NCBI GenBank assembly: GCA_030649135.1
Contig: JAUSGI010000008.1
Location: forward strand, 152,896-216,895
Length of the DNA stretch: 64,000 nt
Direction: 5' to 3'
Origin: a bacterium
Lineage (GTDB): Bacteria > Patescibacteriota > Minisyncoccia > Phycocordibacterales > Zambryskibacteraceae
Each line of letters opens with the position of its first letter. Positions within the stretch are counted from its first letter, which is position 1. A program made the translations under genes and the position numbers. The notes under the pieces were generated by a model. The model ran no database searches. It was not told the origin of the DNA and saw only the letters and a list, made by a program, of their open reading frames with translations. This document shows positions 45,806-64,000 of this stretch, piece by piece.

Positions 45806-45879
45806 GTGCGCGCTGAGGGATTTGAACCCCCGGCCTTGTCTACGTCAAAGACACGCTCTAACCAACTGAGCTAAGCGCG
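45806..45879 (-). tRNA. tRNA-Val (anticodon GAC)
   Basis: Cloverleaf with acceptor GCGCGCT/AGCGCGC, anticodon loop TTGACGT, T-loop TTCAAAT. No encoded CCA. Confidence 0.8.
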
Positions 45880-45896
45880 CAAGCAGAAATATAATC

Positions 45897-46154
45897 TTAT
45901 TCCGCTGGAGAAACTATCGAACCTTCTTTCGCTTTTTGCGGGAACTTAATCGCCGCTTCGTCCCCCTTCTTGGCTGACTCTACACTTTCATGTTCAATTT
46001 GCATTGACTCTACAGCGCAGTCGAATTCTTCGTCCCCGTGGCTGACCTTGATACGGTCACCAACCTTCAAAGACCCCGCCATTTTGACCACTCCCACACC
46101 GATTTTATCGTACCAATGCGTAACCTTGCCGAGTTCTTTTTTAACTTTTGGCAT
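45897..46154 (-). CDS. Hypothetical small beta-barrel protein (EF-Tu domain-2-like?)
   Basis: 85 aa. GVGVVKMAGSLKVGDRIKV pattern. Weak. Confidence 0.35.
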   Translation of the reverse strand: MPKVKKELGKVTHWYDKIGVGVVKMAGSLKVGDRIKVSHGDEEFDCAVESMQIEHESVESAKKGDEAAIKFPQKAKEGSIVSPAE

Positions 46155-46266
46155 ATGTGTTTAAATTTAAATTGATAAAAGGTTTGGGCCAGAAAAAGCT
46201 TTTTAGCTATTTTCAACCATATCTTACTAAAATTAGCCGGATTTGTAAAAACTTGGAAGTTTCGAT

Positions 46267-46341
46267 TGGTGACCCTACCGGGAGTCGAACCCGGCTTCCA
46301 AGCTTGAAAAGCTTGTGTCCTAACCGATAGACGATAGGGCC
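46267..46341 (-). tRNA. tRNA-Glu (anticodon TTC), CCA encoded
   Basis: Acceptor GGCCCTA/TAGGGTC, anticodon stem CAAGC/GCTTG with loop TTTTCAA, T-loop TTCGACT, 3' ACCA. Confidence 0.8.
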
Positions 46342-46399
46342 TCTTACAGAACTGAAGTTATCTTAGCATTTTTGGCTTTAAATGGTATAGTTTTGCTCT

Positions 46400-46486
46400 G
46401 GAAGAGTGGCTGAGAGGTTTAAGGCACCGGTTTCGAAAACCGGCAGGCCCGCAAGGGCCTCGTGAGTTCAAATCTCACCTCTTCCG
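46400..46486 (+). tRNA. tRNA-Ser (anticodon CGA), long variable arm
   Basis: Acceptor GGAAGAG/CTCTTCC, anticodon loop TTCGAAA (as in E. coli serU CCGGTCTCGAAAACCGG), variable arm CAGGCCCGCAAGGGCCTC, T-loop TTCAAAT. Confidence 0.8.
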
Positions 46487-46501
46487 CCCAATTATTTATA
46501 T

Positions 46502-47587
46502 ATGAAAATCCTTGCCATAGAAACTTCGTGCGACGAGACTGCGGTAGCGCTTCTCGAGATAGACGGGGCGCTGGAAAAACCTAATATAAAAGTGTTGGGT
46601 AATACCCTCTTATCTCAAGTAGCACTCCACGAACAGTACGGCGGGGTCTATCCTAACTTGGCAAAAAGGGAGCACCAGAAAAATTTACCGCCTCTCCTAG
46701 AAGAGACGCTTCGCGAGGCCTGTGAGAATCCGGAAAAGCCTGATATAGATTATATTGCTGTCACAAATGGCCCCGGTCTTGAGCCGGCTCTCTGGGTTGG
46801 CATCACTTTCGCGGAAGCGCTTGGCAAGAAATGGAACAAGCTTGTCGTGCCGGTCAATCATATGGAGGGGCATGTCTTCTCCGTATTATTTGAGTCCGGT
46901 GATGCTCTGGCATTGCCGGCTCTCGCGCTCTTGGTGTCTGGGGGACATACCGAATTGGTGCATGTGAAAGATTTTATGAGTTACGAGATTCTTGGTCAAA
47001 CGCGCGATGATGCTGTCGGTGAAGCATTCGACAAGGTGGCCCGCATGCTCGGACTTCCCTATCCCGGTGGGCCGGAAATATCAAAACTAGCAGAAATTGC
47101 TAGAGGAAAAGTTAATTCAGAGACAACGACATTTCGTTTCCCTCGTCCGATGATGCACTCAAAAAATCTCGACTTTTCTTTCTCTGGTCTTAAGACTGCT
47201 GTGCTCTATAAACTCAAATCAGAAAATGGTTCGACAAGCTCACCACAAGTAGGAGATGAAGGATTCAAGGAAGATATGGCTCGGGCATTTGAAGATGCGG
47301 CGGTCGAGGTATTGGTAGACAAGACTCGCAGAGCATTGGTTGAGTTGGGAGACGGGGCAAAGACCCTCATTGTCGCCGGCGGAGTTTCGGCCAATCTCCA
47401 CCTCTCCCGAGAACTCCGTAAACTTGTAGCCGAATTCCCCGACATCACTCTTAAAATACCACCGAGACTTTTGACTACGGACAACGCCATCATGATTGGC
47501 ATTTCGGCCTTTATCAAAATAAGCAGAAAACCCGAGATTCTTAAAGACAAAATGCCAATCACCGCACAGGGTAATTTGTCTTTTTAG
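46502..47587 (+). CDS. tsaD: tRNA N6-adenosine threonylcarbamoyltransferase TsaD (Kae1/YgjD family)
   Basis: MKILAIETSCDETAVAL; HMEGH metal motif. Confidence 0.9.
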   Translation: MKILAIETSCDETAVALLEIDGALEKPNIKVLGNTLLSQVALHEQYGGVYPNLAKREHQKNLPPLLEETLREACENPEKPDIDYIAVTNGPGLEPALWVGITFAEALGKKWNKLVVPVNHMEGHVFSVLFESGDALALPALALLVSGGHTELVHVKDFMSYEILGQTRDDAVGEAFDKVARMLGLPYPGGPEISKLAEIARGKVNSETTTFRFPRPMMHSKNLDFSFSGLKTAVLYKLKSENGSTSSPQVGDEGFKEDMARAFEDAAVEVLVDKTRRALVELGDGAKTLIVAGGVSANLHLSRELRKLVAEFPDITLKIPPRLLTTDNAIMIGISAFIKISRKPEILKDKMPITAQGNLSF

Positions 47588-47608
47588 CGTGTTATCATTG
47601 AGAAACGC

Positions 47609-49672
47609 ATGGATGAGAAGTTTCTTAAACCCTATAACCCCGAAGAAACGGAAAGCCGGATATACGCGCTCTGGGAAAAGAGCGGTTTTTTTAACCCGGA
47701 TAATTTGCCCGAGAGGCACGAGAAACCTTTCACTATTGTCATGCCTCCCCCGAATGCCAACGGCAGTCTCCATTCTGGTCACGTCCTTTTTATAACTCTT
47801 GAGGATATCATCATCCGATTCAAGAGAATGCTGGGTTATAAAGCCCTTTGGATTCCTGGCGCCGACCATGCCGGTTTTGAAACTCAAGTGGTATTCGAAA
47901 AAAAACTGGAGAAGGAAGACCGCTCAAGGTTCGGTATGGATCCTAAGGCTTTGTATCAGGAAATTTTGGCCTTTACCCTTGAGAATAAGAAAAATATGGA
48001 GTCTCAAGTTCGTTCGCTCGGCGCTTCCTGTGATTGGTCTCGCGAAAAGTTTACCTTAGACCAAGATGTGGTGCTAAAGACCCAAGAGACTTTTATAAAA
48101 ATGTTTAATGAGAAGCTTATCTACCGCGGCCAGCGAGCAACCAATTGGTGTTCCAAACATCAAACTTCCCTTTCCGAGGTGGAAACCGAATCGGCTGAAG
48201 AGACTTCTCCTTTTTACTACTTCCAATACGGACCATTTGAAATCGGCACGGTCAGGCCGGAGACTAAGTTCGGCGACAAATACGTTGTTATGCATCCAGA
48301 TGATACTCGGTATGCCCAATACAAACACGGCGACAAACTAGAACTCGAATGGATTAACGGGCCGATTACAGCCACGGTTATCAAGGACGAAGCAGTAGAT
48401 ATGGAGTTCGGTACGGGTGTGATGACTATTACCCCTTGGCATTCGCAAGTGGACCTCGAAATTGCCAAACGCCACAATTTGGATATGGAACAAATCATAG
48501 ATTGGCAGGGCAAGCTCTTACCTATTGCCAGCGAATTCTCCGGCCTGAATATAAAAGTTGCCAGACCGAAAATAGTGGAGAAACTTGAATCTAAGAGACT
48601 CCTCACCCGCATCGACAAAGAATATAAAAATATCATTAAAAAATGTTATAAATGTGGCACTATTATAGAACCACAAGTGAAAGACCAGTGGTTCGTAAAG
48701 ATGGAGCCATTGGCAAAGTTGGCGATTGACGCTGTCAATCGCGAGGAAATTAAGTTTATTCCAGACAACTACGAGAAAATTTTTAAATACTGGATGGAAC
48801 ATCCCATCGATTGGAACATTTCTCGCCAAATTGTCTGGGGTATTCCCATACCGGCATGGTTTCGCACCAATGAGATAGCGGTCGGGATAGAAAAACCTAC
48901 GGGTGAAGGTTGGATTAAGGACTCCGATACATTCGATACTTGGTTCTCAAGCGGACAATGGCCGCTCCTCGTAACCGGCTACCCCGATGGAGACGACTAT
49001 CAGACATTTTACCCGACGGATGTGATGGAGACTGGGCATGACCTCATATTTAAGTGGGTTCCGCGCATGGTTATTTTCGGCCTCTATTTGTCAAAACAGG
49101 TACCCTTCCACACAGTCTACCTGCATGGTCTCGTCAATGATGCCCAAGGTAAAAAAATGAGCAAATCCAAAGGCAACGTGGTCGACCCCTTAGTCCTAAC
49201 CAAAAAATACGGCACCGACGCTCTGCGTATGACTCTCATCGTCGGCAACACGCCGGGAACTGACCTTGCGTTACGCGAAGACAAAATCAAAGGATACAAA
49301 AACTTCGCCAATAAAGTTTGGAATATCGCGCGATATGTGCTCTCGCAAAAAAGAGACGGCGAACTTGATAAAGAACTGGCCGGCGAATTTGACGCGTTAA
49401 CCAAAGATGTAACGGATGATATGGAAAATTACCGTTTCTACATTGCCGCGGAGAAAATTTACGCGTATGTCTGGCACCGCTTTGCCGACGAAATTATCGA
49501 GGAAAGCAAAAAACAATCAGAGCGTGGAGAGACTCTATACTATATCCTTGAGAATTCGCTGAAACTGCTCCACCCATTCATGCCCTTTATCACCGAAGAA
49601 ATTTGGCGGGAAATGTGTCAGGACAAATTATTGATGATAGAACCATGGCCTGTAAATAAAAATGAGTCCTGA
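47609..49672 (+). CDS. valS: Valyl-tRNA synthetase, short (687 aa, no C-terminal coiled coil)
   Basis: PPPNANGSLHSGHVL (HIGH), TRPETKFGDKYV editing-domain motif, KMSKSKGNVVDP, LHPFMPFITEEIW. Confidence 0.85.
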   Translation: MDEKFLKPYNPEETESRIYALWEKSGFFNPDNLPERHEKPFTIVMPPPNANGSLHSGHVLFITLEDIIIRFKRMLGYKALWIPGADHAGFETQVVFEKKLEKEDRSRFGMDPKALYQEILAFTLENKKNMESQVRSLGASCDWSREKFTLDQDVVLKTQETFIKMFNEKLIYRGQRATNWCSKHQTSLSEVETESAEETSPFYYFQYGPFEIGTVRPETKFGDKYVVMHPDDTRYAQYKHGDKLELEWINGPITATVIKDEAVDMEFGTGVMTITPWHSQVDLEIAKRHNLDMEQIIDWQGKLLPIASEFSGLNIKVARPKIVEKLESKRLLTRIDKEYKNIIKKCYKCGTIIEPQVKDQWFVKMEPLAKLAIDAVNREEIKFIPDNYEKIFKYWMEHPIDWNISRQIVWGIPIPAWFRTNEIAVGIEKPTGEGWIKDSDTFDTWFSSGQWPLLVTGYPDGDDYQTFYPTDVMETGHDLIFKWVPRMVIFGLYLSKQVPFHTVYLHGLVNDAQGKKMSKSKGNVVDPLVLTKKYGTDALRMTLIVGNTPGTDLALREDKIKGYKNFANKVWNIARYVLSQKRDGELDKELAGEFDALTKDVTDDMENYRFYIAAEKIYAYVWHRFADEIIEESKKQSERGETLYYILENSLKLLHPFMPFITEEIWREMCQDKLLMIEPWPVNKNES

Positions 49673-50345
49673 AACCATAACATACGCGCTTGCCGGAGGC
49701 GTTCTGCCGGCACTGGTCTGGCTCGCCTTTTGGCTCCGAGAGGATTACCGACACCCAGAACCGCGGGGTCTGATTCTCAAAACATTTCTTCTCGGCATGG
49801 GCGCGGTGATTCTCGTTCTGCCTTTTCAGAAAGTGGTAGATACATGGTTCCCGGGCATGGCACTCCCCGCTATTCTCCTGTGGGTCATCTTGGAGGAAGC
49901 TTTCAAATTCACCGCGGCCTTCTTCGGCGGCCTTAGGACATTGGAGGACAACGAACCGATTGACCCAATCATTTACATGATTACGGCCGCCCTTGGCTTC
50001 GTGGCTTTGGAAAATACACTCTTCATTTTAGGACCGCTCATCGGAGAAGAAGTGACAAAAAGTGTGATTACCGGCAATTTGCGCTTCATCGGAGCCAGTC
50101 TCGTGCACGTCATCTCAAGTGGCATTATTGGAGTCTCCCTTGCGTTATCGTTCTACAAACCAAAGAGAGAGCGTATCATCTTCACTGTTCTGGCCATAGT
50201 TCTGGCCATCGCCTTCCATGCCGGATTCAACCTCGTCATCGTCCATTGGAACAACGCCGGCACCATGCTTGCCTTTGGGTCAGTCTGGATTGGCGCTATC
50301 CTCCTCCTCTTGGCATTTGAGAAAGTAAAAACGATTGCGCGATAG
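49662..50345 (+). CDS. PrsW-family intramembrane protease-like protein
   Basis: Polytopic. ILEEAFKF (EExxK) and FHAGFN motifs. Confidence 0.55.
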   Translation: MSPETITYALAGGVLPALVWLAFWLREDYRHPEPRGLILKTFLLGMGAVILVLPFQKVVDTWFPGMALPAILLWVILEEAFKFTAAFFGGLRTLEDNEPIDPIIYMITAALGFVALENTLFILGPLIGEEVTKSVITGNLRFIGASLVHVISSGIIGVSLALSFYKPKRERIIFTVLAIVLAIAFHAGFNLVIVHWNNAGTMLAFGSVWIGAILLLLAFEKVKTIAR

Positions 50346-50371
50346 GAAGTATAGGATATAATTAAACCGTC

Positions 50372-50833
50372 ATGCAAAATAAAAGATCTTTTTTTGAAAG
50401 GCTCACGGGCGCAGTGCGACTCGACGAAGAAAGAGAGCAACCGGAAGAAGAGAGTCACATCGGCACAAACGCCAAACAAAATATATTTGAGGAAAGCGAG
50501 GAGGAAGCCCAGCTCACCGTGGACGTTTACCAAACACCTTCGGAAATTATCATCAAGACTATGGTCGCCGGGGTTAAACCGGAAGACCTTGACGTATCGA
50601 TTACCAGAGACTCCGTCACTATTCGCGGTAAACGAAGCGAAGACAGAACGATATCGAACGACGAATATTTCCACCACGAGCTTTATTGGGGTTCCTTTGC
50701 CAGAGCCATAACCTTACCGGAAGAAATTGATGTCGACGGAGCAGAGGCAGTCGAGAAACACGGTATGCTCGTCCTCCATCTGCCTAAACTCGATAAAAAT
50801 CGCCAAGCTAAACTTAGGGTTAAGGGGAGTTAG
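50372..50833 (+). CDS. Hsp20/alpha-crystallin small heat-shock protein
   Basis: Alpha-crystallin domain (VDVYQTP..., SITRDSVTIRGKR, GMLVLHLPK). Confidence 0.85.
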   Translation: MQNKRSFFERLTGAVRLDEEREQPEEESHIGTNAKQNIFEESEEEAQLTVDVYQTPSEIIIKTMVAGVKPEDLDVSITRDSVTIRGKRSEDRTISNDEYFHHELYWGSFARAITLPEEIDVDGAEAVEKHGMLVLHLPKLDKNRQAKLRVKGS

Positions 50834-50835
50834 GG

Positions 50836-50908
50836 TGCCAAGACCCAGGTTCGAACTGGGGACCCTTCCCTCTTCAGGGGAATGCTCTACCAACTGAGCT
50901 ATCTTGGC
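50836..50908 (-). tRNA. tRNA-Phe (anticodon GAA)
   Basis: GCCAAGATAGCTCAGTTGGTAGAGC...CTGAAGA...GGTTCGAACC...TCTTGGCA. Confidence 0.85.
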
Positions 50909-50928
50909 ATTGTAAACCGCAAAACAAT

Positions 50929-51156
50929 TTACTGATTAAGAAGTTCTTTCACACTGTTGAAGTTCTCTAATGATTGATCAAGAAACGGTTGTAGATAAAA
51001 GTAACCAACCACTAGAGGTACTACTATAATAGCCACTTTTATGAATCCCCAGAGAATGGCCCAGCGTGCCGCTCTTTGCATCTTGCGCAGAATCTGATTA
51101 TTTTCTTCGGCTAGCTTTAATGAGCGTTCCAGGAGCACTTTTTCTTCGGGATTCAT
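50929..51156 (-). CDS. Hypothetical small membrane protein
   Basis: 75 aa, one TM. Confidence 0.3.
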   Translation of the reverse strand: MNPEEKVLLERSLKLAEENNQILRKMQRAARWAILWGFIKVAIIVVPLVVGYFYLQPFLDQSLENFNSVKELLNQ

Positions 51157-51216
51157 AGATAAGTATTATAGCTAAATATCGGTTTTTTTCAAATTTCGTG
51201 TTATATTTCGAGCATC

Positions 51217-51288
51217 GCCGCCGTAGTTCAACGGATAGAACAGCGCCGTCCTAAGGCGTTAATGTAGGTTCAATTCCTGCCGGTGGCA
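51217..51288 (+). tRNA. tRNA-Arg (anticodon CCT)
   Basis: GCCGCCGTAGTTCAACGGATAGAAC...GTCCTAA...GGTTCAATTCC...CGGTGGCA. Collinear with E. coli argW-type tRNA. Confidence 0.75.
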
Positions 51289-51294
51289 CCCAAT

Positions 51295-53908: not shown

Positions 53909-55585
53909 TTATACTATCTCCGGGTCAGTAGCAACAACGTTTGCTTTCCAGAACTTACCCCGCACCACACCCCAGACTTCATGGAGTTCTCGACTCTTAA
54001 GCGCAAATAAAATCGTAACGCCCACGGCCATAGCAAATAGCCCTGCCCAAAAACCTTGCAAGAAAATACCCACAAGGGAGGTTGTATCGAGTAAGCGGGC
54101 AAAGATGTTTAGCCCAAGGTAAGCGGTTGCTCCCATGATGACAGAGGACCCCAAACCTTCGAACAATGTCCGAGTAACCCCGCGCGAGAAACCCCGAAAG
54201 AACTTCTCAAATGTCATCCAGTGGAGCAGACCGTTAATAATAGTGGCAATAGAGAAACCCAAAGGTAACATCAGGACGGCCGTACCGGACAAATCTTCAA
54301 CCTTGAGAAGCGCGCTGATAAAATAACGGAACTCCGCCGACCAGTAGAAAATTTTCACCAACCACCAAGTACCCATCACCATGACAGTAGTGGAGATAAG
54401 ATTGAGAAAAAACGGCTTTCTGGTAAAACCGGCGGAATAAAACCCTCTGATAAAAAGTAAGAGGAGACACTGGAACACGGAGGAGAGAGCGAAGAGCGCC
54501 AAAGCGGCCGCGGTCAAGCGGGTCGCATCCCAATCGAAAAGCCCCGAACCAAGAACGACTCTGACAATTTGCGCGCGCAGCACAATAAGGAGCGCCGAGA
54601 CGGGTAGCGACCAGAAGATGATAAATCTCGCGGTAGTCGCCATCTGCTGTTTAAAAGCCTCGAGATTATTCTCTCTGAAACGCCTGGAAAGAGTCGGGAA
54701 CGCCGCCAGAGAATATGAGACACCGATAATAGAGAGGGGTACGGATTGAAGATTTATGGAAAACGAGAGAATGGCGATGGAACCTGCCGTCATCAAGGAT
54801 GCCAAAGATACCAGACAAATCAGAGCGATGGAACTCATCGACAGGGTTAGCGTCCTGGGCAGGGAAATCCTGACCACTTGAGCAATGAGTGCGAAGTCAA
54901 ATTTTAGCGAAAACCGCGGGAACAGACCCGCCCTGACCACAAACGGCACCTGTATCAAGGCATGCAGGCTCGCCCCCGCAACCACGCCAATGGCCACACC
55001 TATAATACCCAGCCGTTCGGCGAAAAGAATAATACCGACAATGATACCGGCGTTATAAAAGAGCGGGGCCAGAGCGTAGATAGTGAAACGGTTATAAGCT
55101 TGAGTTAGAGAACCAAACAAATTTGAAAATCCCAATATAATTGGCGAGAGCAAAAGCATACGGGAAATAAAAATAGCTTCAGCAAGCGCCGGCCCGGAAA
55201 AGCCCTGAAATAAGAAACCCGAAAGAGCCGGCAAGAGAAAAAATGCCAGACCGGAAACGGTGATAATCAGGATGGAGAAGAAAGAAAAAACATTATTTAT
55301 AAAAGAGCGTAGCGCTTCCAAGCCCTTGGCTTCCCTCTCGATGACAAATGGAACCAGGACCGAAAGCGAGACAACCGAGGCTACTGTGACAAAGAGAAAA
55401 TCCGGAATACGGAAAGCGGCATAATAAATATCGAGCTCTGCCGAAGCGCCGAAGATGTGCGCGAGAAGCCTGTCGCGCAAGAAACCCAACACTTGAGACA
55501 AGAAAGCAAAGAGTCCCAATAAGAGCGCGGCCTGATTGAGAGTCCCGGTCTCCTTATAGAGAAAGCCGATAATCTTGCGAACCAT
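53909..55585 (-). CDS. murJ: Lipid II flippase MurJ (MviN family)
   Basis: About 14 TM helices. N-terminus LGFLRDRLLAHIFGASAELDIYYAAFRIPDF is MurJ-like. Confidence 0.7.
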   Translation of the reverse strand: MVRKIIGFLYKETGTLNQAALLLGLFAFLSQVLGFLRDRLLAHIFGASAELDIYYAAFRIPDFLFVTVASVVSLSVLVPFVIEREAKGLEALRSFINNVFSFFSILIITVSGLAFFLLPALSGFLFQGFSGPALAEAIFISRMLLLSPIILGFSNLFGSLTQAYNRFTIYALAPLFYNAGIIVGIILFAERLGIIGVAIGVVAGASLHALIQVPFVVRAGLFPRFSLKFDFALIAQVVRISLPRTLTLSMSSIALICLVSLASLMTAGSIAILSFSINLQSVPLSIIGVSYSLAAFPTLSRRFRENNLEAFKQQMATTARFIIFWSLPVSALLIVLRAQIVRVVLGSGLFDWDATRLTAAALALFALSSVFQCLLLLFIRGFYSAGFTRKPFFLNLISTTVMVMGTWWLVKIFYWSAEFRYFISALLKVEDLSGTAVLMLPLGFSIATIINGLLHWMTFEKFFRGFSRGVTRTLFEGLGSSVIMGATAYLGLNIFARLLDTTSLVGIFLQGFWAGLFAMAVGVTILFALKSRELHEVWGVVRGKFWKANVVATDPEIV

Positions 55586-55589
55586 CCAG

Positions 55590-57923
55590 TCAGTTTTTTA
55601 TCGAGTTAGTCAGGAACGTACGTTTACCGACTCTAAGTTCCTTAAGAATTAAACGCACCTGTTCATTATCGGGGTTGGTAATAGCTAGGGCTTCGAATTG
55701 CTCTTGGGCCTTATCCAACTGGCCGAGTTGAGCAAAAGTGAGACCAAGATAATACTGGGCATTGGCATAATCCGGTGCGGACACAAGTGCCTTACTAAAA
55801 GCAGCAATCGCACCGGCGTAGTCTTTCACAGAATACTTCAGTAAGCCCAACTCGAAGTAGATGCCGGGATTATTGGATACCAAGAGAGCCAGCTTCTCCG
55901 CGGAAACAATAGCACTAGTCGTATTTCCATCCTGGATTTCCAGTTGAGCAAGCATCAAGTGGGCATCAGCATAATCCTCTTTGAGAGCAATGGAACTCCT
56001 GATGAAGGAACGAGCCGCCTCTCTATTGCCGCGATTCAGTTCCAATCTGGCCAGAAAAAGGGGTATCTCCGGATTGAGAGGATTTCGTTTGAGAGCTTCG
56101 GAGTAAGCGAGAGAAGCACTCTCATAAGCGCCTGCTATGGAGAGCGGCTTAGGTACCAGAGCGCTATAAATCATGCCGAGCGAGACCCAGTTCTGGTAGC
56201 TAGCCGGATTGATACCAACGGCAGACTTCGCCGCTTCAATACTTTTTCCCAGAGACTCCTCGAAAGTTGCTTGATTGTCTTTCAAAGCTCCGGTAGTAGC
56301 ACTGGCGGCTGTTTGAGCTTTGAGAAAATTGATACGCGAGAGAGCAATATAGTACGTATCTATCGGGGAAAATTTCACCGCCTTATTAAGCTCGTTCTCA
56401 ATCTCCACCAGAGGAGTGCCGGTGATATTGGAAAGGTCAACAGCTTTTTTGAAATAAAAAGCTGACACCGTTTTGTTAAACCCTGTCCAACCAAGGAAAA
56501 GAGCCCCGCAAGCAATCACCGTTATGAGAAGGGTCGAAACAAAACGAAGCTGGGAAGACTCTTTCAAGCGAAAAGTGCGAAGAGAAATAATACCTGACAC
56601 ACCACTTGCCGCTACAAAAAGTCCGGTGAAGATGAAAGCGAACATCAGCACGGTTGCCGAAGGAACGTAGAGAAAACTAGAAACCCAAAGGAAACAGGTG
56701 ATTAAGAAAACAGAGACGAGTGCGAAGCGTTCGGCTCTCGATTCCGGCATACGACCCCAAACTTTGACCCCCAACATGATAAGGAGAACGAAGAAAGTCA
56801 GCCACAAAGCCGTGCCAAGTATGCCGGTAGAAGCTATTTGTGTCGGTATAAAGCCCACACCGAACGGAAACGCCACGGCCCAGAAGGGAGTGGTATTTAT
56901 AGCGACCGGTTTATAGACGAGCCAGTCACGCCCAAAAGTATTGGGACCGGAACCAAGAAACCTTTCTTGGGAAAGCACGGCCTTCGAGATGCCCAGAGTA
57001 GCCGAGAGGGAGGGACGCACATCAATATTCTCGACTTTGAAACTTCTTGATACCCAGTCGCCAAGCGTACCTTGGGTCACGGATAGGTTCGGATTATAGA
57101 GAAAGGCAATGGAAATTATGCCGAGAACCACCGGTAGAAAAGTCGGCTGGAAAAAAAAGTATCTCGACGCTTGTGGTAATACCGGCGCGGCGTCGGAGAA
57201 AGGTTTTTCCATCGTTAAGAAATAGAGCAAGAGGAAAATAGAAGCTCCTAAAGTTAGAACAAATGCGGTGGAGAAATTGAGAATTGCCAAGAGCGCCACT
57301 CCGAGCACAAAGGCGCCATAGACGAGTGTTTTGACAACGAATTTCATCGGAATCATACCGATTGCCAGAGCCGCGAAGCTCGATAGAAGCCCGAAAGAAA
57401 CCGCCAAATCTGTCCAGTTGCCGATAGGATTGCCCATGTTGCCGACAAAGTTCCCCCAAACTAAAAAATCACCGCCCAAGAAGACTTTGATAGCCACAAA
57501 AAGCGCTACGAGTGAAATGGAAATAAGGAAAGCCGCCAATGCCTGGAGAATACGCGAGGTACCGGAAAATATCGTGGCTACCAATATCAAGAGCATGGAA
57601 CCGAAGAGCGTGGAACCGAAGGTCCCCACCTCGAAATTGTAACCAAAAAGCGAAAGTAAAGACGGCGTACTTAAAAAAGCGGACAGGGCATAAATCACAG
57701 GCAAAAGCAGAGCTAAGAGAATCGACAGATGCCATGGCATATTTAACTCCCCTTTTCGCCAAGTCTCCAGGAGAAACACCAGAACCACCGCGATAACACT
57801 AAAAACAAGAAGCGCCGACTTGGCCGCATCCATATTAAGGGCTCCACCTGGGACAAAGAACACCGGTAGAAGGAAGAGAAATACCATAGTGATAAGGAAA
57901 CTGGTTTTGTGTGATGTAGACAT
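55590..57923 (-). CDS. Polytopic membrane protein (O-antigen ligase/Wzy-like) with C-terminal TPR repeats
   Basis: At least 10 TM helices followed by ~300 aa of TPR-like repeats (YANAQYYLGLTFAQLGQLDKAQEQF). Confidence 0.5.
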   Translation of the reverse strand: MSTSHKTSFLITMVFLFLLPVFFVPGGALNMDAAKSALLVFSVIAVVLVFLLETWRKGELNMPWHLSILLALLLPVIYALSAFLSTPSLLSLFGYNFEVGTFGSTLFGSMLLILVATIFSGTSRILQALAAFLISISLVALFVAIKVFLGGDFLVWGNFVGNMGNPIGNWTDLAVSFGLLSSFAALAIGMIPMKFVVKTLVYGAFVLGVALLAILNFSTAFVLTLGASIFLLLYFLTMEKPFSDAAPVLPQASRYFFFQPTFLPVVLGIISIAFLYNPNLSVTQGTLGDWVSRSFKVENIDVRPSLSATLGISKAVLSQERFLGSGPNTFGRDWLVYKPVAINTTPFWAVAFPFGVGFIPTQIASTGILGTALWLTFFVLLIMLGVKVWGRMPESRAERFALVSVFLITCFLWVSSFLYVPSATVLMFAFIFTGLFVAASGVSGIISLRTFRLKESSQLRFVSTLLITVIACGALFLGWTGFNKTVSAFYFKKAVDLSNITGTPLVEIENELNKAVKFSPIDTYYIALSRINFLKAQTAASATTGALKDNQATFEESLGKSIEAAKSAVGINPASYQNWVSLGMIYSALVPKPLSIAGAYESASLAYSEALKRNPLNPEIPLFLARLELNRGNREAARSFIRSSIALKEDYADAHLMLAQLEIQDGNTTSAIVSAEKLALLVSNNPGIYFELGLLKYSVKDYAGAIAAFSKALVSAPDYANAQYYLGLTFAQLGQLDKAQEQFEALAITNPDNEQVRLILKELRVGKRTFLTNSIKN

Positions 57924-58381: not shown

Positions 58382-59044
58382 ATGGGAGCAAGGCAAGGAA
58401 GTTTCGCTGCGGGAGAATACTACCACTTATACAATCGCGGTAATAGTAAACAGAAAATTTTTCACAGCAAACACGATTATGAGCGTTTTTTAAAGTTGCT
58501 ATATATTGCAAACTCTTCAGAAAAATTCCACTTCTCCGACATTCAAAATCCATACGAGATAGAAAGGTCTGCCCGACTGGTATCAATAGGAGCGTATTGC
58601 TTGATGCCAAATCATTTTCATCTACTGATGACGCCTGTGAACGACAAAGAAGCTGGGGTAAGTAAATTTATGAAAAAATTAGGCACTGCTTATGCTATGT
58701 ATTTCAATACAAGGTACGAGAGAGTGGGAAGCCTTTTCGAGGGAAAATTTAGATCAGAACATCTTGACTCAGACCGTTATCTCAAATATATATTTTCTTA
58801 TGTACATCTTAATCCTATAAAGATTATGGATAACAAATGGAGGGAACTTGGTATTAAGGACAAAAACAAAGCCTGGCGATTCCTCAATGGATACAAATAC
58901 TCAAGTTTTTATGATTACCAGGATAAACACAGGGAGGAAGAGAAAATTTTGAACAAAGAAAATTTTCCTGGCTACTTTCCCTCTGCACATAAGTTTAAGG
59001 AAGAAATATTTGATTGGCTAAACTTCAGCAACCGAAAGCAATAA
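58382..59044 (+). CDS. REP-associated tyrosine transposase (RAYT)/IS200-like, paralog 3
   Basis: YYHLYNRGNSKQKIF, HUH CLMPNHFHLLMT, Tyr motif SYVHLNPIK. AT-rich. Confidence 0.75.
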   Translation: MGARQGSFAAGEYYHLYNRGNSKQKIFHSKHDYERFLKLLYIANSSEKFHFSDIQNPYEIERSARLVSIGAYCLMPNHFHLLMTPVNDKEAGVSKFMKKLGTAYAMYFNTRYERVGSLFEGKFRSEHLDSDRYLKYIFSYVHLNPIKIMDNKWRELGIKDKNKAWRFLNGYKYSSFYDYQDKHREEEKILNKENFPGYFPSAHKFKEEIFDWLNFSNRKQ

Positions 59045-59074: not shown

Positions 59075-62000
59075 TTAGGGGGCAGGTTCTAGAATCAGTT
59101 CGGGTTCGGGAGTAGGTTCAGGAGCGGGCTCAAGAACGGACTCAGGAGCTGGTTCGACTTCGGTCATCGTAGTCTCTGTACTTGTCCCTGTAGGCTCAGT
59201 GGACGTTGCTACGGACTCCAGTTCTGGTGCTGATATCGGTTCAAGCGTAGGAGAAGATGTTGAAGTCGTGCCACCTGAACTTGCCTGCCCAGAGCTTGTC
59301 GAGGGGGATGAGCTTGCCGGGACAGGCGAGTTGGCAAGTTCAAGCAGGATAGAAAGCTCGGTCTTCGTGACACAGACGTCTTCGATACAAAGCTCTTTGG
59401 TATAAACAGTCTCCGAGCTGATAGTCTTTGCGAACACAACCTGGAGACCATTACCGGAGTCTGCCAACCACTTGCCTACTCTGGATAAAATGTTGGTGAA
59501 GAAACGTTCGGCAAATGATTGTAAGTCCGGTGTGGTGGTGGCAATGGCAGATACATCGAGTACCGATAATATTTTAGTGTTACTGTCATTGAGATTACCA
59601 AAGTCCGTATTCAATTTTGTGATAGCCTCGGTATGGTCGTTTATGCCGATAGTTAGCAAGGCATTCAATTTGTCTGCTTCATCCTGCGCGATTTGCTGCA
59701 TTTGAGGGTCCAAATTCAAGTTCTCGGTCGCCTGTGTAATCATCTGCTGTACCTGGTCTTCTATTTTCATATTGGCAATACGTTCCACTACCAAGGTTTC
59801 GACTTCTTCCACGGCCAGTGATTTATTGCGGCGAGAAATTAAAACTTTAATTTTGCCTTTGCCCGTAGCGAGTGGCTCGAGAGCAATGCCCACGGTGGAG
59901 TCGCCACCGTCGGCACGCATCGCTAATCCTGGCGTAGAAGACGCCGAGGTCAAAGAGTCGCCAATGTTAATCGAGCCATTTTCTGCCGAGACAAAAGCGT
60001 CAACCTGACCAAGCATGCCGATAATGGCATAATGAGACGCATCCGCTTCGACCGCTTTGATATAGTTACCGATAACTGATGGCTTGGTGGAAACTATACC
60101 CATAACATTATTATCTGCGCCACGCTCACAGCGCTTAATCGCGTTGTTTTCTACGACATCAACGCAGACAACTTCTCCAGATTTTAGGTCAACGCTATTG
60201 GTGTAAAAATATTCGGCATAGTCAGCTGCGGGCGAAGTATATGCCCCATCGGCTTTGGTATTGCCGTATGAGTCGACTTTGAAAATAAGACCGGAAGTGG
60301 TGGTAGAGATGACGAAAACATCTCTTAGAACTACTGTGTTATCTACCAAGGATAATTTCGCATAAGGGCTCGTCGTCCCAATACCGACATTGCCGGTGGT
60401 GCTGGCAATGCGCATGGCTTCAGATTCATTATCACGATAGAAGACAACGGCGCCACCGATAGTGAATGTCCCAATGCCTAAAGTTTCATTAGACTGATCC
60501 CATCTAACTCGGGCACCCAGTCCATCACTTACGTTACCAAAATTAATATCCTGCGTCGTGCCGTCAGGTGTTTGGAAAGTCAACCCGGTACTGACATCGT
60601 CCTCAATCATTACTAAAGCGGGGTCTCCGCCGTTGACAGTACCGGTACCGCCAAATATATGGAGCAACGAGTTTGTTTCCGGCGTTGTCGTCCCAATGCC
60701 GACTCTTCCAGAAGAGTCGATACGCATTCTTTCCGTACTACCACCTGTATGTAAGGTGATAACTCCTGAAGAATGGCGAGCAGCGATAGCAATTCCGCCA
60801 GCTCCACCATCTCCACTAGTAGTGTGTAAACTGGCTCCGTTCGCTCGGTTATAGGTAGTGGCGCCAGAGTCATAGGTTGAACCGTACACCATCATAGCAA
60901 GACCGGTAGATCCAGTATCGTTGATTAAGTTCCAGCCGGTTTGAGCGCTACTTAACGTTGATTCAATTGTGGGCTGAATTTGTGCGGTTGAAAATATATG
61001 CAGAAGTTGACTTGGGGTCGTCGTCCCAATCCCCACATTACCCCCCATAAAAAGCCCCGCAATAGGATTCGTGGCAGTTGACGAAGCGACATACGACACA
61101 ATCCCCCCGCCCGAATAAATCCCCCCCAGTCCCGCACTGATTCCTCCGTACACACTCAAGTTTCCTCCCAGCACGCCATTTCCATCCACATGCAAAACGT
61201 TACTTCGTAGCGCTCCCGCATAGAGCGACGGAGTCTCCGTCCCGTTGATGTTTATTATAGTGAACATATCATCCACCCGACTGGTGATGTAGGCGCGATT
61301 ACCTGAAATGGCAATGCCGTTAATGCCGTCAAACCGAGTAGAATCGGTGTCCGAAGTGACAAAGTATGGTCGTGAGGGGTTGGAAATATCAATGACATTA
61401 AAATAGTCCCCCGTTTCGCCTCCGACATACGCGTAATTACCCGCCACCGCAAGGCCAACGGGTACTCCGACATTGTTTATTTGTCCAAGTTTGGTGGTGT
61501 CGGTAAGTGTCCCGGCGATAGTGGGGGCTTTAGGATTGGAAACATCAATAATAGTGAAGGTCGAAGTGGTGGTTGCTACGGTATAGGCGTACCGCCCCGA
61601 GACAACGATATTTTTGGCATTATTTAGATTCGTGGTATCTATCAGAGAACCCACAATGACCGGTGCGTCAGTCCGAGAGATGTCAATGACGGCAAGCGCG
61701 TTTGAGTATGTTCCAATCGCATAGGCATATTTACCCTGCACCGCTATGCCTTGGGCAAAATCGAGGAGCGAGGCACTCGAAACAAAGCCAGATACCACAG
61801 GGGCAGTAGGGTCGGATACGTTAACAATAGTAACCATATCGTCACTTCGGTTTGCAACGTATACATATTGTCCCGAAACCGCAACCTGCATGGGTGTGTC
61901 TAACCGAGTAGCGGAAGACACCACTCCCACTATCTTTGGAACCGTTGGGTTAGAAATATCAATAACCGTCAGACTATCTGCAGTTACCGAACTGACATAC

Positions 62001-63622
62001 GCATAATTGCCCGCCACGGCAAGACCGTTCGCACCATCCATATTCACCGCGTCTGCTACCGACCCCACAATCTGCGGAGTGGAAGAGGAGATATCTATGA
62101 CCGCAAGCGAGTCATTGGTTATGTCCGTAACGTAGGCATAGTTTCCTTGTACGGCAATACCAAAGCGCATATCACCAAGAGTAGTAGCGTTGGTGACGAA
62201 GCCCACCACGCTAGGCGAGGTCGAGGCGCGGTGGAAGATGTTTCCGCCCTCTACGGTAAGTTTAGCGATAGGCGACGTGGTGCCGATGCCAATGTTGCCA
62301 CCGTCAGCCACCACGAATGGATTTAAGGCTCTGTCCCCATTCACATAGAGAGTCGCATAGTTGTTATCGTTATCATAAGTAAGTGCCAGTCCTTTATTGC
62401 TTGAAGCTGCGCTACCAACAATTATAGAAGTATCACCGGATATTCTTCCTTCTCCAAATATCGCCTGGGTTGCGCTATTCGCCGCGACAGAGAGTAGTGC
62501 GGCAGGCGAAGTCGTCCCAATCCCGACGTTGCCGGTTTGGTCAATGATAAATGGCGAGCTATCAGGTGAGGCGATGTCTTCCACGATAAATGCAGGCGCC
62601 CCCCCTGTTCCCGTTTGAGTAATGGATAGCTTACCCCACGGAGTGGTGGTGCCGATGCCGACAGTGCCGGTACTATCAAATCTCATACGTTCTGCATTGT
62701 TTACAAAAATTGCCATATCACTTGCGTTTTCGCTTGCAACTGTTGGGCCGTACGTCAAAATTCCATGGAGCAAGTCATCAGAAGGGAAACCGAAGTATAG
62801 ATTGGCTCGTGCATTGTCCGACGCAGCAATAGTGATGCCTGAGTTGTTTGCTCCCTCAAACAACGCTTCAGACGCATCGACATTCACGGTGGACATGATT
62901 GCGGAACTTGAGACATGAAGGTTGGCAAGGGGGCTCGTCGTCCCGATGCCGACAAAGCCATCTTCATCGATTCGTACTCTTTCAGACAATGTAGCATTGT
63001 TCATTGTGCTAAAGGTCAACCTCCCGTAGGCGCGATTAGTTTTATCAGAAGACCCAGTGATTCTTGCAAGGTCTCTATCAATGTTTGATTCATTGAAGTT
63101 TACATAAGCGATATCTTGATTCGCCGCACTTAGCGGTTTGCTAAGCTGGAGGTTCCCGCCGCTAGCAATCTCAAGCTTTTCTCCTGGCGTCGTCGTCCCG
63201 ATGCCAACATTTCTGCTTGAATCAACAATCAGACCTGTACCTCCTACTGTCAGAAGTGAGGAGTAGAGATTGGTAGAACTGGCAGTAGTGGAGAAAAGAT
63301 TGGTGGTGGTGGCGTTGGTCGAAGTGGAGTAAGTGGCGAAAGTAGAAGAGGCAATTAAACCTAGAGGTGAGCCTTTGAGCCAGAGACCGGTTGATGTCGC
63401 AACTACGTTTTGAGTACCGTAAGTAGTGGGAGTCCAGGCGAAGGTGTTGTCGTCCGCTTCGCAACCGAAGACTCCACCGGCCCAGGTGAGGACGTTGTTC
63501 GATTGGCAAGTGGCAAGACCTGCGCCATTAAAGAGAGCGGTGTAGAGATTGGTGGAAGAAGCAGTAGTACTGAAAAGATTGGTGGAGGTGGCATTCTGGA
63601 AAGTAGAAGAGGATGTTACCAA
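59075..63622 (-). CDS. Giant secreted/surface protein (1515 aa) with tail-fibre-like GIGTT(S/T)P repeats, LVIVD-type beta-propeller repeats and a Pro/Glu/Thr-rich C-terminal tail
   Basis: More than 10 copies of N(V/I)GIGTTxP...KL. (N)YAYV..D..TVIDIS repeats in the middle. Low-complexity C-terminus PAPEPTPEPE. The N-terminal region is repeated upstream. Confidence 0.6.
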   Translation of the reverse strand: MVTSSSTFQNATSTNLFSTTASSTNLYTALFNGAGLATCQSNNVLTWAGGVFGCEADDNTFAWTPTTYGTQNVVATSTGLWLKGSPLGLIASSTFATYSTSTNATTTNLFSTTASSTNLYSSLLTVGGTGLIVDSSRNVGIGTTTPGEKLEIASGGNLQLSKPLSAANQDIAYVNFNESNIDRDLARITGSSDKTNRAYGRLTFSTMNNATLSERVRIDEDGFVGIGTTSPLANLHVSSSAIMSTVNVDASEALFEGANNSGITIAASDNARANLYFGFPSDDLLHGILTYGPTVASENASDMAIFVNNAERMRFDSTGTVGIGTTTPWGKLSITQTGTGGAPAFIVEDIASPDSSPFIIDQTGNVGIGTTSPAALLSVAANSATQAIFGEGRISGDTSIIVGSAASSNKGLALTYDNDNNYATLYVNGDRALNPFVVADGGNIGIGTTSPIAKLTVEGGNIFHRASTSPSVVGFVTNATTLGDMRFGIAVQGNYAYVTDITNDSLAVIDISSSTPQIVGSVADAVNMDGANGLAVAGNYAYVSSVTADSLTVIDISNPTVPKIVGVVSSATRLDTPMQVAVSGQYVYVANRSDDMVTIVNVSDPTAPVVSGFVSSASLLDFAQGIAVQGKYAYAIGTYSNALAVIDISRTDAPVIVGSLIDTTNLNNAKNIVVSGRYAYTVATTTSTFTIIDVSNPKAPTIAGTLTDTTKLGQINNVGVPVGLAVAGNYAYVGGETGDYFNVIDISNPSRPYFVTSDTDSTRFDGINGIAISGNRAYITSRVDDMFTIININGTETPSLYAGALRSNVLHVDGNGVLGGNLSVYGGISAGLGGIYSGGGIVSYVASSTATNPIAGLFMGGNVGIGTTTPSQLLHIFSTAQIQPTIESTLSSAQTGWNLINDTGSTGLAMMVYGSTYDSGATTYNRANGASLHTTSGDGGAGGIAIAARHSSGVITLHTGGSTERMRIDSSGRVGIGTTTPETNSLLHIFGGTGTVNGGDPALVMIEDDVSTGLTFQTPDGTTQDINFGNVSDGLGARVRWDQSNETLGIGTFTIGGAVVFYRDNESEAMRIASTTGNVGIGTTSPYAKLSLVDNTVVLRDVFVISTTTSGLIFKVDSYGNTKADGAYTSPAADYAEYFYTNSVDLKSGEVVCVDVVENNAIKRCERGADNNVMGIVSTKPSVIGNYIKAVEADASHYAIIGMLGQVDAFVSAENGSINIGDSLTSASSTPGLAMRADGGDSTVGIALEPLATGKGKIKVLISRRNKSLAVEEVETLVVERIANMKIEDQVQQMITQATENLNLDPQMQQIAQDEADKLNALLTIGINDHTEAITKLNTDFGNLNDSNTKILSVLDVSAIATTTPDLQSFAERFFTNILSRVGKWLADSGNGLQVVFAKTISSETVYTKELCIEDVCVTKTELSILLELANSPVPASSSPSTSSGQASSGGTTSTSSPTLEPISAPELESVATSTEPTGTSTETTMTEVEPAPESVLEPAPEPTPEPELILEPAP

Positions 63623-64000
63623 AAGATTTTTAATGGTGGCCAGACCAAGAGCATCGATGGAGAAGAGTGTGGTAGTGGAGAAGGCTGCGGTGGAAGAAGA
63701 GATGATGAAGAGATTGGAGTTGTATGTGTCGGTGGCACCGGCATGGAGATTAAAGCGAGCGTAAGGAGAAGAAGTACCGATACCGAAACTATTAGCTGCA
63801 GACAGGTTGGTAGTGGAAGCAGTGATGGCGTTGAAGAGGGTGGCAAAGAAATTGGTCGAAGTAGCGTTGGTCGAGGTGGAGTAAGTGGCGAAAGTGGAAG
63901 AGGCAATTAAGCCTAGAGGTGAGCCTTTGAGCCAGAGACCGGTTGATGTCGCAACTACGTTTTGAGTACCGTAAGTAGTGGGAGTCCAGGCGAAGGTGTT
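63311..64000. repeat. Tandem direct duplication (~138 bp near-identical copies, 552-bp period) in the 5' region of the giant gene, running off the window
   Basis: 63311-63448 and 63863-64000 differ at only a few positions. The 552-bp offset is a multiple of 3 (184 aa). Confidence 0.7.

What the first reader, a model, noticed from the sequence alone, without database searches (positions are those of the whole stretch)
59075..64000. Giant repeat-rich surface protein with a recent in-frame ~552-bp tandem duplication at its 5' end (window edge)
The 1515-aa product combines more than 10 N(V/I)GIGTTxP...KL repeats (tail-fibre-like), LVIVD-like beta-propeller repeats ((N)YAYV..D..TVIDIS) and a Pro/Glu/Thr-rich tail. 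Nucleotide blocks 63311-63448 and 63863-64000 are nearly identical and offset by 552 bp (184 codons). This indicates a very recent duplication or an upstream paralog continuing beyond the window. The annotated Met at 63622 is preceded by similar repeat sequence, so the true gene may be longer or disrupted. Such proteins are candidates for host or partner-cell attachment in episymbiotic bacteria.
Basis: partly seen in the sequence, partly recalled or inferred. Interest (0 to 1): 0.55.

Follow-up and report, generated by a model that had tools for sequence, protein, structure and literature searches.

The report
Truncated phage-fibre-like surface protein gene
This is the 3' part of a very large gene for a phage-tail-fibre-like surface protein from a tiny, uncultured (Patescibacteria) bacterium; the contig ends inside the gene's own repeats, so the "duplication" is an ordinary internal repeat.

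Summary
The repeat is real: 63288-63448 and 63840-64000 share 161 nt at 93% identity, the first 89 nt exactly, offset 552 nt and in frame. The gene model is wrong. The minus-strand frame is open from 59075 to the window edge, "Met 63622" is an in-frame TTG (Leu), and the public record is a partial 1641-aa protein at the end of a 216,895-bp contig.

Only a 53-codon block is visibly repeated, not a 552-bp unit. It belongs to a Ser/Thr-rich, Cys-loop module that recurs at variable spacing in a same-MAG fragment and in relatives of 2,500 to over 5,000 aa.

Architecture:
- Ser/Thr-rich stalk.
- Two fibre segments carrying 9 GIGTxxP-type motifs (a tenth is in the stalk), homologous to Bdellovibrio MAT fibres and phage tail fibres.
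- A 7-blade LVIVD propeller between the fibre segments.
- A conserved post-chaperone module and a Ser/Pro/Thr/Glu-rich tail.

Best reading: a trimeric, probably self-processing surface fibre used for attachment. Attachment, trimerisation and cleavage are inferred. It is a new member of a kind already annotated widely in Patescibacteria, and interest is low to moderate.

The parts
59075..64000 (-). 5'-truncated CDS (1641 codons plus stop) of a giant fibre-like surface protein. The frame is open to the window and contig edge.
   Evidence: no stop from 64000. (P0001: 100% identical, 'partial', 1641 aa, contig 216,895 bp).
63840..64000 (-). Upstream copy of the repeated block (aa 1-53, NTFAWTPTTYGTQNVVATSTGLWLKGSPLGLIASSTFATYSTSTNATSTNFF), cut by the contig end.
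63288..63448 (-). Downstream copy of the repeated block (aa 185-237).
63215..64000 (-). Ser/Thr-rich modular stalk (aa 1-262). It holds the 'NATSTNLFSTTASSTNLY' motifs (second repeat family 63255-63316 / 63534-63595, 81%) and one GIGT module.
63461..63508 (-). Cys-loop CQSNNVLTWAGGVFGC (aa 165-180). Both Cys are invariant in the module alignment. It is modelled as a beta-hairpin, at low confidence.
62201..63214 (-). Fibre segment 1 (aa 263-600) with five N(V/I)GIGTTxP motifs. It is homologous to the beta-helix fibres of Bdellovibrio Bd3182 and Bd2133.
   Evidence: searches (E 7e-6 and 9e-6; PHROG tail fibre), (cyanophage and pelagiphage tail fibres).
61226..62203 (-). LVIVD-repeat beta-propeller, 7 units (aa about 600-925).
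   Evidence: (PF08309 E 4e-42; Lactonase 7-bladed E 2e-5).
60269..61225 (-). Fibre segment 2 (aa 926-1244) with four GIGT motifs.
59816..60226 (-). phi29-gp12-type (peptidase G2-like) autochaperone domain (aa 1259-1395). It begins at the invariant A-D-Y-A-E-Y-F. The inferred self-cleavage site is just before D1260 (codon 60221-60223).
59501..59815 (-). Glu/Gln-rich linker after the chaperone domain (aa 1396-1500), presumed helical. This is an inference and was not modelled.
59333..59500 (-). Conserved post-chaperone module (aa 1501-1556: WLADSGNG...ELCIEDVCVTKTELSILL). Relatives that end in S74 carry the same module.
59078..59332 (-). Ser/Pro/Thr/Glu-rich C-terminal tail (aa 1557-1641).
   Evidence: There is a weak PARP-like hit and in relatives.

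Best explanation
Region 59075-64000 is the 3' two-thirds, or less, of one very large chromosomal gene of a Patescibacteria (CPR) bacterium. The gene is cut by the contig end inside its own repeat array.

The product is a modular, phage-tail-fibre-like surface fibre. From N to C it has:
- a Ser/Thr-rich stalk built from reiterated modules (the Cys-loop plus the 'NTFAWTP...' block);
- beta-helical fibre segments marked by N(V/I)GIGTTxP motifs;
- a 7-bladed LVIVD propeller inserted between two fibre segments;
- a phi29-gp12-type intramolecular chaperone domain;
- a conserved small module and a Ser/Pro/Thr/Glu-rich tail.

Proposed mechanism. The missing N-terminus anchors or exports the chain. Three chains are registered and folded from the C-terminal chaperone domain. 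That domain then cleaves itself off just before the invariant D-Y-A-E-Y-F. The result is a mature trimeric fibre with three propellers that binds a surface ligand, or possibly degrades one, on a partner cell.

What is shown and what is inferred. Shown: the architecture, the homologies and the fold. Inferred: surface location, trimerisation, cleavage and attachment.

The two near-identical blocks are two of many copies of a stalk module. They were homogenised recently by duplication or gene conversion. Such repeats are why the assembly breaks here.
For: Gene model:
- The frame is open to the edge.
- The public record is partial, 1641 aa, at a contig end.
- Homologues align across the supposed start.

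Repeat:
- 161 nt at 93%, 89 nt exact, with a sharp drop in identity.
- The same module occurs x5 in the same-MAG fragment P0002, x3 in P0080, x3 in P0121, and about 35 profile hits lie in a >=4995-aa ORF in L005.
- Relatives' genes very often sit at contig ends.

Fibre:
- PDB sequence hits to Bdellovibrio MAT fibres Bd3182 and Bd2133 on the GIGTT segments. These are surface-displayed trimeric adhesive fibres (PMC10769870).
- PHROG tail-fibre families.
- Cyanophage and pelagiphage tail fibres, E to 2e-12.

Propeller: PF08309, E 4e-42.

Chaperone domain:
- 67% identity to the P0009 segment that scores PF11962 above threshold.
- The profile hits 'chaperon domain D4 of tailspike Dpo31', whose chain starts at GSDYAEYF.
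- The AF2 model (pLDDT 77) is confident from exactly ADYAEYF onward.
- The gp12 C-terminal domain is an autochaperone that is cleaved off after folding (PMC3357383).
- Relatives carry S74 at the same position, followed by the same post-chaperone module and tail.

Chromosomal context: the neighbours are LepA, MurJ, LeuRS, TsaD and tRNAs, and GC content is even.
Against: - The N-terminus is missing, so export and anchoring cannot be examined.
- Pfam PF11962 does not score on this protein itself, even at E<=10.
- The profile-to-PDB hit is weak (E 0.023).
- The chaperone-like domain is not terminal. About 245 aa follow it. In some relatives it occurs twice inside one ORF (L020, P0082). That is unusual for a cleaved C-terminal chaperone.
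- No phage record matches the domain by tblastn.
- The monomer model of the stalk module failed (pLDDT 36.5), so its fold is unknown.
- No ligand, partner or expression evidence exists.
- A chimeric join between paralogues at the contig end cannot be excluded without reads.
Confidence: 0.65

Rival explanations
1. The terminal copy is an assembly artefact. The contig end is either a collapsed or chimeric join between paralogous fibre genes of the same genome, or simply the graph overlap with the internal copy. On this reading there is no second copy in this gene.
For: - The copy sits exactly at the contig end, and its first 89 nt are identical to the internal copy.
- The same MAG has at least two other fibre-gene fragments broken at contig ends. 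They have near-identical stretches, for example P0023 '...TAAFSTTTLFSIDALGLATIKNLLVTSSSTFQNATSTNLFSTTASSTNLY'.
Against: - The terminal copy has its own variants in its last 72 nt (11 differences, 6 synonymous codons). It runs in frame into 391 nt of unique sequence that leads to the internal copy. A distinct second copy therefore exists in the reads.
- Multiple copies per gene are the rule in relatives, including genes internal to long contigs (L005, L016, P0121).
Confidence: 0.12
2. It is a prophage or phage tail-fibre or tailspike gene rather than a cellular surface protein.
For: - PHROG tail-fibre hits.
- Similarity to phage tail fibres.
- A phage gp12-type chaperone fold.
- The sequence upstream of the gene is unknown.
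Against: - All 59 kb on the known side are housekeeping genes (LepA, MurJ, LeuRS, TsaD, HSP20, tRNAs) with no phage structural genes next to it.
- GC content is even.
- Complete relatives lie between SecA/GatB and glycolytic genes.
- Paralogues and relatives have signal-peptide-like or HTH-plus-transmembrane N-termini, not virion-attachment domains.
- Sizes of 2,000 to over 5,000 aa are far beyond typical phage fibres.
Confidence: 0.05
3. It is a tailspike-like enzyme rather than a pure adhesin. The LVIVD propeller would be catalytic, acting as a glycosidase, lyase or lactonase-like enzyme that degrades partner-cell surface polymers, as the propeller of phage K1F endosialidase does.
For: - The layout is fibre, then propeller, then stalk, then cleavable chaperone. 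It parallels K1F endosialidase, which has three beta-propellers and a C-terminal autochaperone (PMC3357383).
- There is a weak Lactonase 7-bladed hit.
Against: - No catalytic family scores significantly.
- LVIVD repeats have no demonstrated activity.
- No active-site motif was identified here.
Confidence: 0.15

Closest known systems
Bdellovibrio bacteriovorus MAT (mosaic adhesive trimeric) fibres, e.g. Bd3182 and Bd2133 (PDB 8OJN, 8OND; PMC10769870)
   Same: - Direct sequence similarity of the GIGTxxP-containing beta-helix segments.
- A cellular, not viral, phage-fibre-like protein.
- Mosaic exchange of modules.
- A C-terminal self-processing chaperone in many members.
- Proposed use for recognising another bacterium.
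   Different: - MATs are about 800-1,150 aa, while this one is over 1,641 aa and relatives exceed 5,000 aa.
- MATs end in S74 or a tip domain. This one has a gp12/G2-type chaperone followed by about 245 further residues.
- The embedded LVIVD propeller and the Ser/Thr/Cys-loop stalk are not described for MATs.
- The defining N-terminal ~130-aa domain cannot be checked because the N-terminus is missing.
Bacillus phage phi29 gp12 pre-neck appendage (tailspike) C-terminal autochaperone; MEROPS/Pfam Peptidase_G2 (PF11962); PDB 3GQH, 3SUC
   Same: - Its position after a trimeric beta-structure.
- A conserved acidic motif (D-x-A-E) at the domain start, where the Dpo31 chaperone chain also starts.
   Different: - Only about 20% identity.
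- The Pfam model does not score on this protein.
- The domain is not terminal.
- There is no phage context.
- Cleavage is untested.
Patescibacteria proteins annotated 'tail fiber domain-containing protein' or 'LVIVD repeat protein' (e.g. P0077, P0053, P0019, P0036)
   Same: - The same overall plan: GIGTT fibre repeats, an LVIVD propeller, a C-terminal chaperone, the conserved post-chaperone module and a Pro/Glu-rich tail.
   Different: - Most carry S74 (PF13884) where this one carries the G2-like domain.
- The Cys-loop stalk module is rare: 138 cluster representatives at E<=1e-3 among 1.84 billion.
Phage K1F endosialidase (endoNF) tailspike
   Same: - A trimeric spike with one beta-propeller per chain, between the N-terminal part and a triple-beta stalk.
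- A C-terminal autochaperone that is cleaved off (PMC3357383).
   Different: - A 6-bladed sialidase propeller and an S74 chaperone.
- No sequence similarity was detected here.
- It is viral.

Membership tests
LVIVD repeat beta-propeller (Pfam PF08309) | Tandem LVIVD repeats scoring above the Pfam gathering threshold | tested here: met
   E 4.1e-42, 141.7 bits against a cut-off of 20.2, 6 stretches; 7 YAY...(V/I)(I/V)(D/N)(I/V)S units at aa 621-903.
Peptidase S74 / endosialidase chaperone (Pfam PF13884) | HMM match with the SDxxxK catalytic motif near the C-terminus | tested here: not met
   No PF13884 hit on the whole protein or on the C-terminal 422 aa at E<=10. Relatives P0074, P0045, P0102, P0077 and L031 do have it.
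Peptidase G2 / phi29 gp12 autochaperone (Pfam PF11962) | HMM match above the gathering threshold | tested here: not met
   No hit on this protein. The 67%-identical segment of P0009 scores 28.7 bits against a cut-off of 25.
Peptidase G2 / phi29 gp12 autochaperone (Pfam PF11962) | Fold of the cleaved gp12 C-terminal fragment | tested here: met
   [not shown]
Peptidase G2 / phi29 gp12 autochaperone (Pfam PF11962) | Conserved acidic residues at the cleavage site at the start of the domain | tested here: inconclusive
   A1259, D1260, Y1261, E1263 and Y1264 are invariant in 24 homologues. The Dpo31 chaperone chain 28nb_A starts at GSDYAEYF. Variants GTDLAENY and GSDVAEMY occur in L020 and L016. Equivalence to the gp12 catalytic residues rests on my recollection of gp12 and was not aligned residue by residue here.
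Peptidase G2 / phi29 gp12 autochaperone (Pfam PF11962) | Autoproteolytic release of the domain after trimer folding | not testable with these tools
   This needs expression and SDS-PAGE or mass spectrometry.
MAT-type trimeric beta-helix fibre (Bdellovibrio; PMC10769870) | Beta-helix fibre repeats with capping-loop motifs, homologous to Bd3182 and Bd2133 | tested here: met
   8ojn_C E 7.1e-6 and 8ond_A E 9.2e-6, aligned on the (V/I)GIGTTxP segments.
MAT-type trimeric beta-helix fibre (Bdellovibrio; PMC10769870) | Signal peptide followed by a conserved ~130-aa beta-rich N-terminal domain | not testable with these tools
   The N-terminus lies beyond the contig end. Three collections did not hold the contig. 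The same-MAG fragment P0002 begins with a hydrophobic leader plus 'PSILSYQGRL...', but it cannot be linked to this gene.
MAT-type trimeric beta-helix fibre (Bdellovibrio; PMC10769870) | Homotrimer displayed on the cell surface | not testable with these tools
   Only monomer modelling was available. No experimental data exist.

The most novel reading that the evidence does not exclude
These genes would encode the host-attachment organelles of Patescibacteria. They would be phage-derived, self-processing trimeric fibres whose stalk modules and chaperone types (S74 or gp12/G2-like) are shuffled by recombination and gene conversion to vary length and specificity.

Two features have no counterpart in phage or Bdellovibrio fibres:
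- A cytoplasmic HTH_17-like domain plus a transmembrane anchor at the N-terminus of many family members.
- Chaperone-like domains that are internal or duplicated within one ORF. This suggests polyprotein-like processing into several fibres, or a retained non-cleaving trimerisation node.
Probability: 0.2. Interest if true: 0.6.

Novelty: new member of a known kind. Interest (0 to 1): 0.3.

Why it matters
Patescibacteria are mostly obligate episymbionts, and how they recognise partner cells is largely unknown. Giant fibre-like proteins are obvious candidates for that role.

This example adds three small points:
- A phi29-gp12-type autochaperone fold can replace S74 in these fibres.
- The same post-chaperone module and tail follow both chaperone types.
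- The reiterated stalk modules are a systematic cause of contig breaks, so such genes are routinely truncated or mis-started in MAG annotations.

For the specific finding, the main value is corrective. The "1515-aa ORF with a recent 5' tandem duplication" is a truncated longer gene with an ordinary internal repeat.

Tried and rejected
- Extending the contig failed.
  - Exact-protein look-ups for P0001, P0002 and P0023 returned nothing.
  - The GTDB genome scan found only relatives of <=70% identity.
  - An exact 30-mer scan of JGI metagenomes found nothing.
  - A protein-guided metagenome scan found relatives of <=77% identity only.
- Linking the same-MAG N-terminal fragments to this gene did not work.
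  - P0002 ends in a different module variant with no overlap.
  - P0023 ends in a region paralogous to aa 446-488 of this protein, so it is a different gene.
  - P0002 remains a possible 5' part, but this is unproven.
- Structure prediction of the repeated stalk module (aa 100-262) gave pLDDT 36.5 and only a hairpin at the Cys-loop, so it was not used.
- Pfam and NCBIfam scans of the stalk, fibre and C-terminal pieces separately gave nothing meaningful beyond LVIVD.
- An S74 chaperone was looked for and is absent.
- A search of the phage database with the chaperone-like domain found no match.
- Literature searches for CPR with LVIVD or giant fibre proteins found no paper describing this family.
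- The prophage origin was rejected on context.
- A second paralogue inside the window was rejected.
Full report
**Observation**

Translating from the window edge shows no stop codon in the 126 codons upstream of that TTG. The TTG is the second Leu of '...ATIKNLLVTSSS...'.

A search of 5.8 billion proteins returned a 100%-identical entry of exactly 1641 aa: 'MAG: hypothetical protein Q7R69_03725, partial [bacterium]', on a 216,895-bp contig. The window edge is therefore the contig end, and the gene is 5'-truncated. There is no 'annotated Met'. Homologues align across the supposed start (P0023; the complete 1863-aa gene of L031).

The repeat itself is real. Blocks 63288-63448 and 63840-64000 share 161 nt at 93% identity, offset 552 nt. 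In register, the first 89 nt from the edge are identical. Identity then decays to background within about 70 nt. There are 6 synonymous and 3 non-synonymous codon differences. The block occurs nowhere else in the window.

Only this 53-codon block is seen twice. The 391 nt between the copies has no second copy in the window. It holds a GIGT module, 'NATSTNLFSTTASSTNLY' motifs and the Cys-loop CQSNNVLTWAGGVFGC. A tandem duplication of a 552-bp unit is therefore not demonstrated.

**What the repeat is**

The block is part of a Ser/Thr-rich module: (S/T-rich strands)-Cys-loop-'(D/N)TF(A/S/E)WTP...'.
- This module occurs five times in P0002, at spacings of 402, 144, 140 and 143 aa. P0002 is a 3'-truncated fragment from the same MAG (Q7R69_00045).
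- It occurs three times at a 267-aa period in P0080 and twice in P0074.
- It occurs three times in the 3935-aa P0121, which has the same overall architecture.
- A profile of the module hits about 35 places in a >=4995-aa ORF of a Parcubacteria MAG (L005). It hits many places in other giant ORFs of Parcubacteria and Saccharibacteria MAGs.
- The module is nonetheless uncommon overall: 138 cluster representatives at E<=1e-3 out of 1.84 billion.

The same MAG has three fibre-gene fragments broken at contig ends (P0001, P0002, P0023). Relatives found in GTDB genomes and JGI metagenomes are also very often at contig ends.

My reading is as follows. The two blocks are two members of a reiterated stalk module inside one gene. 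They were recently homogenised, as shown by perfect identity at synonymous sites and a sharp boundary, through duplication or gene conversion. The assembler stopped at this repeat. A chimeric join cannot be excluded without reads. However, the terminal copy has its own variants and reads through in frame.

I could not extend the contig.

**Architecture** (aa numbering from the window edge)

| Segment | aa | Main evidence |
|---|---|---|
| Ser/Thr-rich stalk | 1-262 | |
| Fibre segment 1, five N(V/I)GIGTTxP motifs | 263-600 | |
| LVIVD propeller, seven units | ~600-925 | |
| Fibre segment 2, four GIGT motifs | 926-1244 | |
| gp12/G2-like chaperone domain | 1259-1395 | |
| Glu/Gln-rich stretch | 1396-1500 | |
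| Conserved post-chaperone module 'WLADSGNG...ELCIEDVCVTKTELSILL' | 1501-1556 | |
| Ser/Pro/Thr/Glu-rich tail | 1557-1641 | |

The fibre segments match several sets of known fibres:
- PHROG tail-fibre families.
- Cyanophage and pelagiphage tail fibres, at 27-30% identity and E down to 2e-12.
- Two solved structures from Bdellovibrio bacteriovorus, Bd3182 (8OJN) and Bd2133 (8OND), with E about 1e-5.

Those two structures belong to the 'mosaic adhesive trimeric' (MAT) fibres. MAT fibres are surface-displayed trimeric beta-helix fibres with exchangeable tips, many ending in a self-cleaving S74 chaperone (PMC10769870).

**The C-terminal domain**

No S74 match exists. Residues 1225-1400 form the most conserved part of the family, at 51-84% identity in 23 non-redundant relatives. 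Invariant residues include A-D-Y-x-E-Y at 1259-1264 and most of L-I-S-R-R-N-K-S-L (L, I, S, R, N, S invariant; R, K, L in at least 90%).

Four lines of evidence assign it to the phi29 gp12 (peptidase G2) type of intramolecular chaperone:
1. The 67%-identical segment of P0009 scores PF11962 above threshold, and NCBI names that protein accordingly.
2. A profile of the domain weakly hits the 'chaperon domain D4 of tailspike Dpo31' (28nb_A, E 0.023). That chain begins at GSDYAEYF.
3. The AlphaFold model (pLDDT 77) becomes confident exactly at ADYAEYF.

The gp12 C-terminal domain is required for trimer folding and is cleaved off afterwards (PMC3357383).

Relatives carry S74 in the same slot, followed by the same post-chaperone module and acidic/proline tail. 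These are P0074, P0045, P0102, P0077 and the complete L031 gene. This supports functional equivalence of the two chaperone types in this family.

There are caveats:
- PF11962 does not score on this protein itself.
- No phage record matches the domain by tblastn.
- About 245 residues follow the domain.
- In L020 and P0082 the domain occurs twice inside one ORF.

**Context**

The known side of the gene is ordinary chromosome. It contains:
- an IS200/RAYT-like Y1 transposase, convergent, at 58382-59044;
- a 777-aa polytopic membrane protein with C-terminal TPRs;
- MurJ, LepA, a DivIC-like protein, HSP20, a PrsW-like protease, LeuRS and TsaD;
- five tRNAs.

GC content is even. Complete relatives sit between SecA/Obg/GatB and glycolytic genes. 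A prophage origin is therefore unlikely.

**Mechanism proposed**

Shown: the modular architecture, homology to trimeric fibres, the propeller, the gp12-type chaperone fold with a conserved acidic boundary motif, and chromosomal context.

Inferred:
- Export and N-terminal anchoring. Paralogues have either a hydrophobic leader (P0002) or an HTH_17-like domain plus a transmembrane helix (P0023 and at least 12 relatives).
- C-terminal chaperone-driven trimerisation.
- Self-cleavage before D1260.
- Display of a long fibre bearing three propellers that binds, or less likely degrades, a surface component of a partner cell.

**Comparison and novelty**

The protein belongs to a class already widely present in databases. 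NCBI annotates members as 'tail fiber domain-containing protein', 'LVIVD repeat protein' or 'peptidase G2 autoproteolytic cleavage domain-containing protein' in Patescibacteria. I found no paper describing this class in CPR.

It works most like Bdellovibrio MAT fibres and phage tailspikes. I do not file it as a MAT member because the defining N-terminal domain cannot be examined. I do not file it as an S74 protein because that test failed. For G2 the fold test is met and the HMM test is not.

Verdict: a new member of a known kind. The specific 'recent tandem duplication' is an ordinary intragenic repeat at a contig break. Interest is 0.3.

Noticed in passing
P0023 (same MAG, Q7R69_00050) and relatives P0080, P0102, P0021, P0016-18, P0025, P0005/7, P0097, P0074, P0076: Many giant fibre proteins of this family start with an HTH_17-like ~50-aa domain (PF12728 scores on P0016). 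A linker and a single transmembrane helix follow. That is a presumably cytoplasmic DNA-binding-type domain fused to an extracellular fibre. I know of no described role for it.
   Followed up: partly
L020:2-11809 (ORF of at least 3936 aa), aa 1691-1822 and 2663-2794; also P0082 aa 1199-1373 and 1627-1758: Two gp12/G2-like chaperone domains (motif GTDLAENY) lie 972 aa apart inside one ORF. Each is preceded by a Gly-rich stretch. This could mean polyprotein-like processing, or a non-cleaving trimerisation node.
   Followed up: partly
window 58382-59044 (+); L025:13881-14534: An IS200/RAYT-like Y1 transposase (PF01797; NCBIfam REP-associated tyrosine transposase, below cut-off) lies convergent and 30 nt from the fibre gene's stop. 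A 34%-identical one lies at the end of the surface-protein gene cluster that contains P0009 in another MAG.
   Followed up: partly
window 55590-57923 (-) and 53909-55585 (-): A 777-aa polytopic membrane protein with C-terminal TPRs sits next to a MurJ-family flippase. Its membrane part matches no Pfam family. The analogous 737-aa protein near P0016 in L026 scores Wzy_C plus TPR. It may be a glycan ligase or polymerase, which is speculative but of interest next to a Ser/Thr-rich fibre.
   Followed up: partly
L016:2-15142 and L005:20-15007: ORFs of at least 5046 aa and at least 4995 aa occur in Kaiserbacteria and Parcubacteria MAGs. Both still run off the fetched locus. L005 holds about 35 hits to the stalk-module profile.
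   Followed up: partly
L025:6733-13828; L031:13675-18631: In two other MAGs, fibre genes are followed by large Laminin_G_3 / concanavalin-like lectin-domain proteins. This suggests surface-protein gene clusters. No such gene is seen on the known side of the window's gene.
   Followed up: no
window 45806-51290: Five tRNA genes (Val-GAC, Glu-TTC, Ser-CGA, Phe-GAA, Arg-CCT) are interspersed with TsaD, LeuRS, a PrsW-like protease and HSP20. This is ordinary.
   Followed up: no
window 63410-63910 (+), 63616-63906 (-) and other ORFs overlapping 59075-64000: There are many 60-170-aa ORFs in other frames over the fibre gene. They are low-complexity shadow ORFs of the repeat-rich sequence, not genes.
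   Followed up: no
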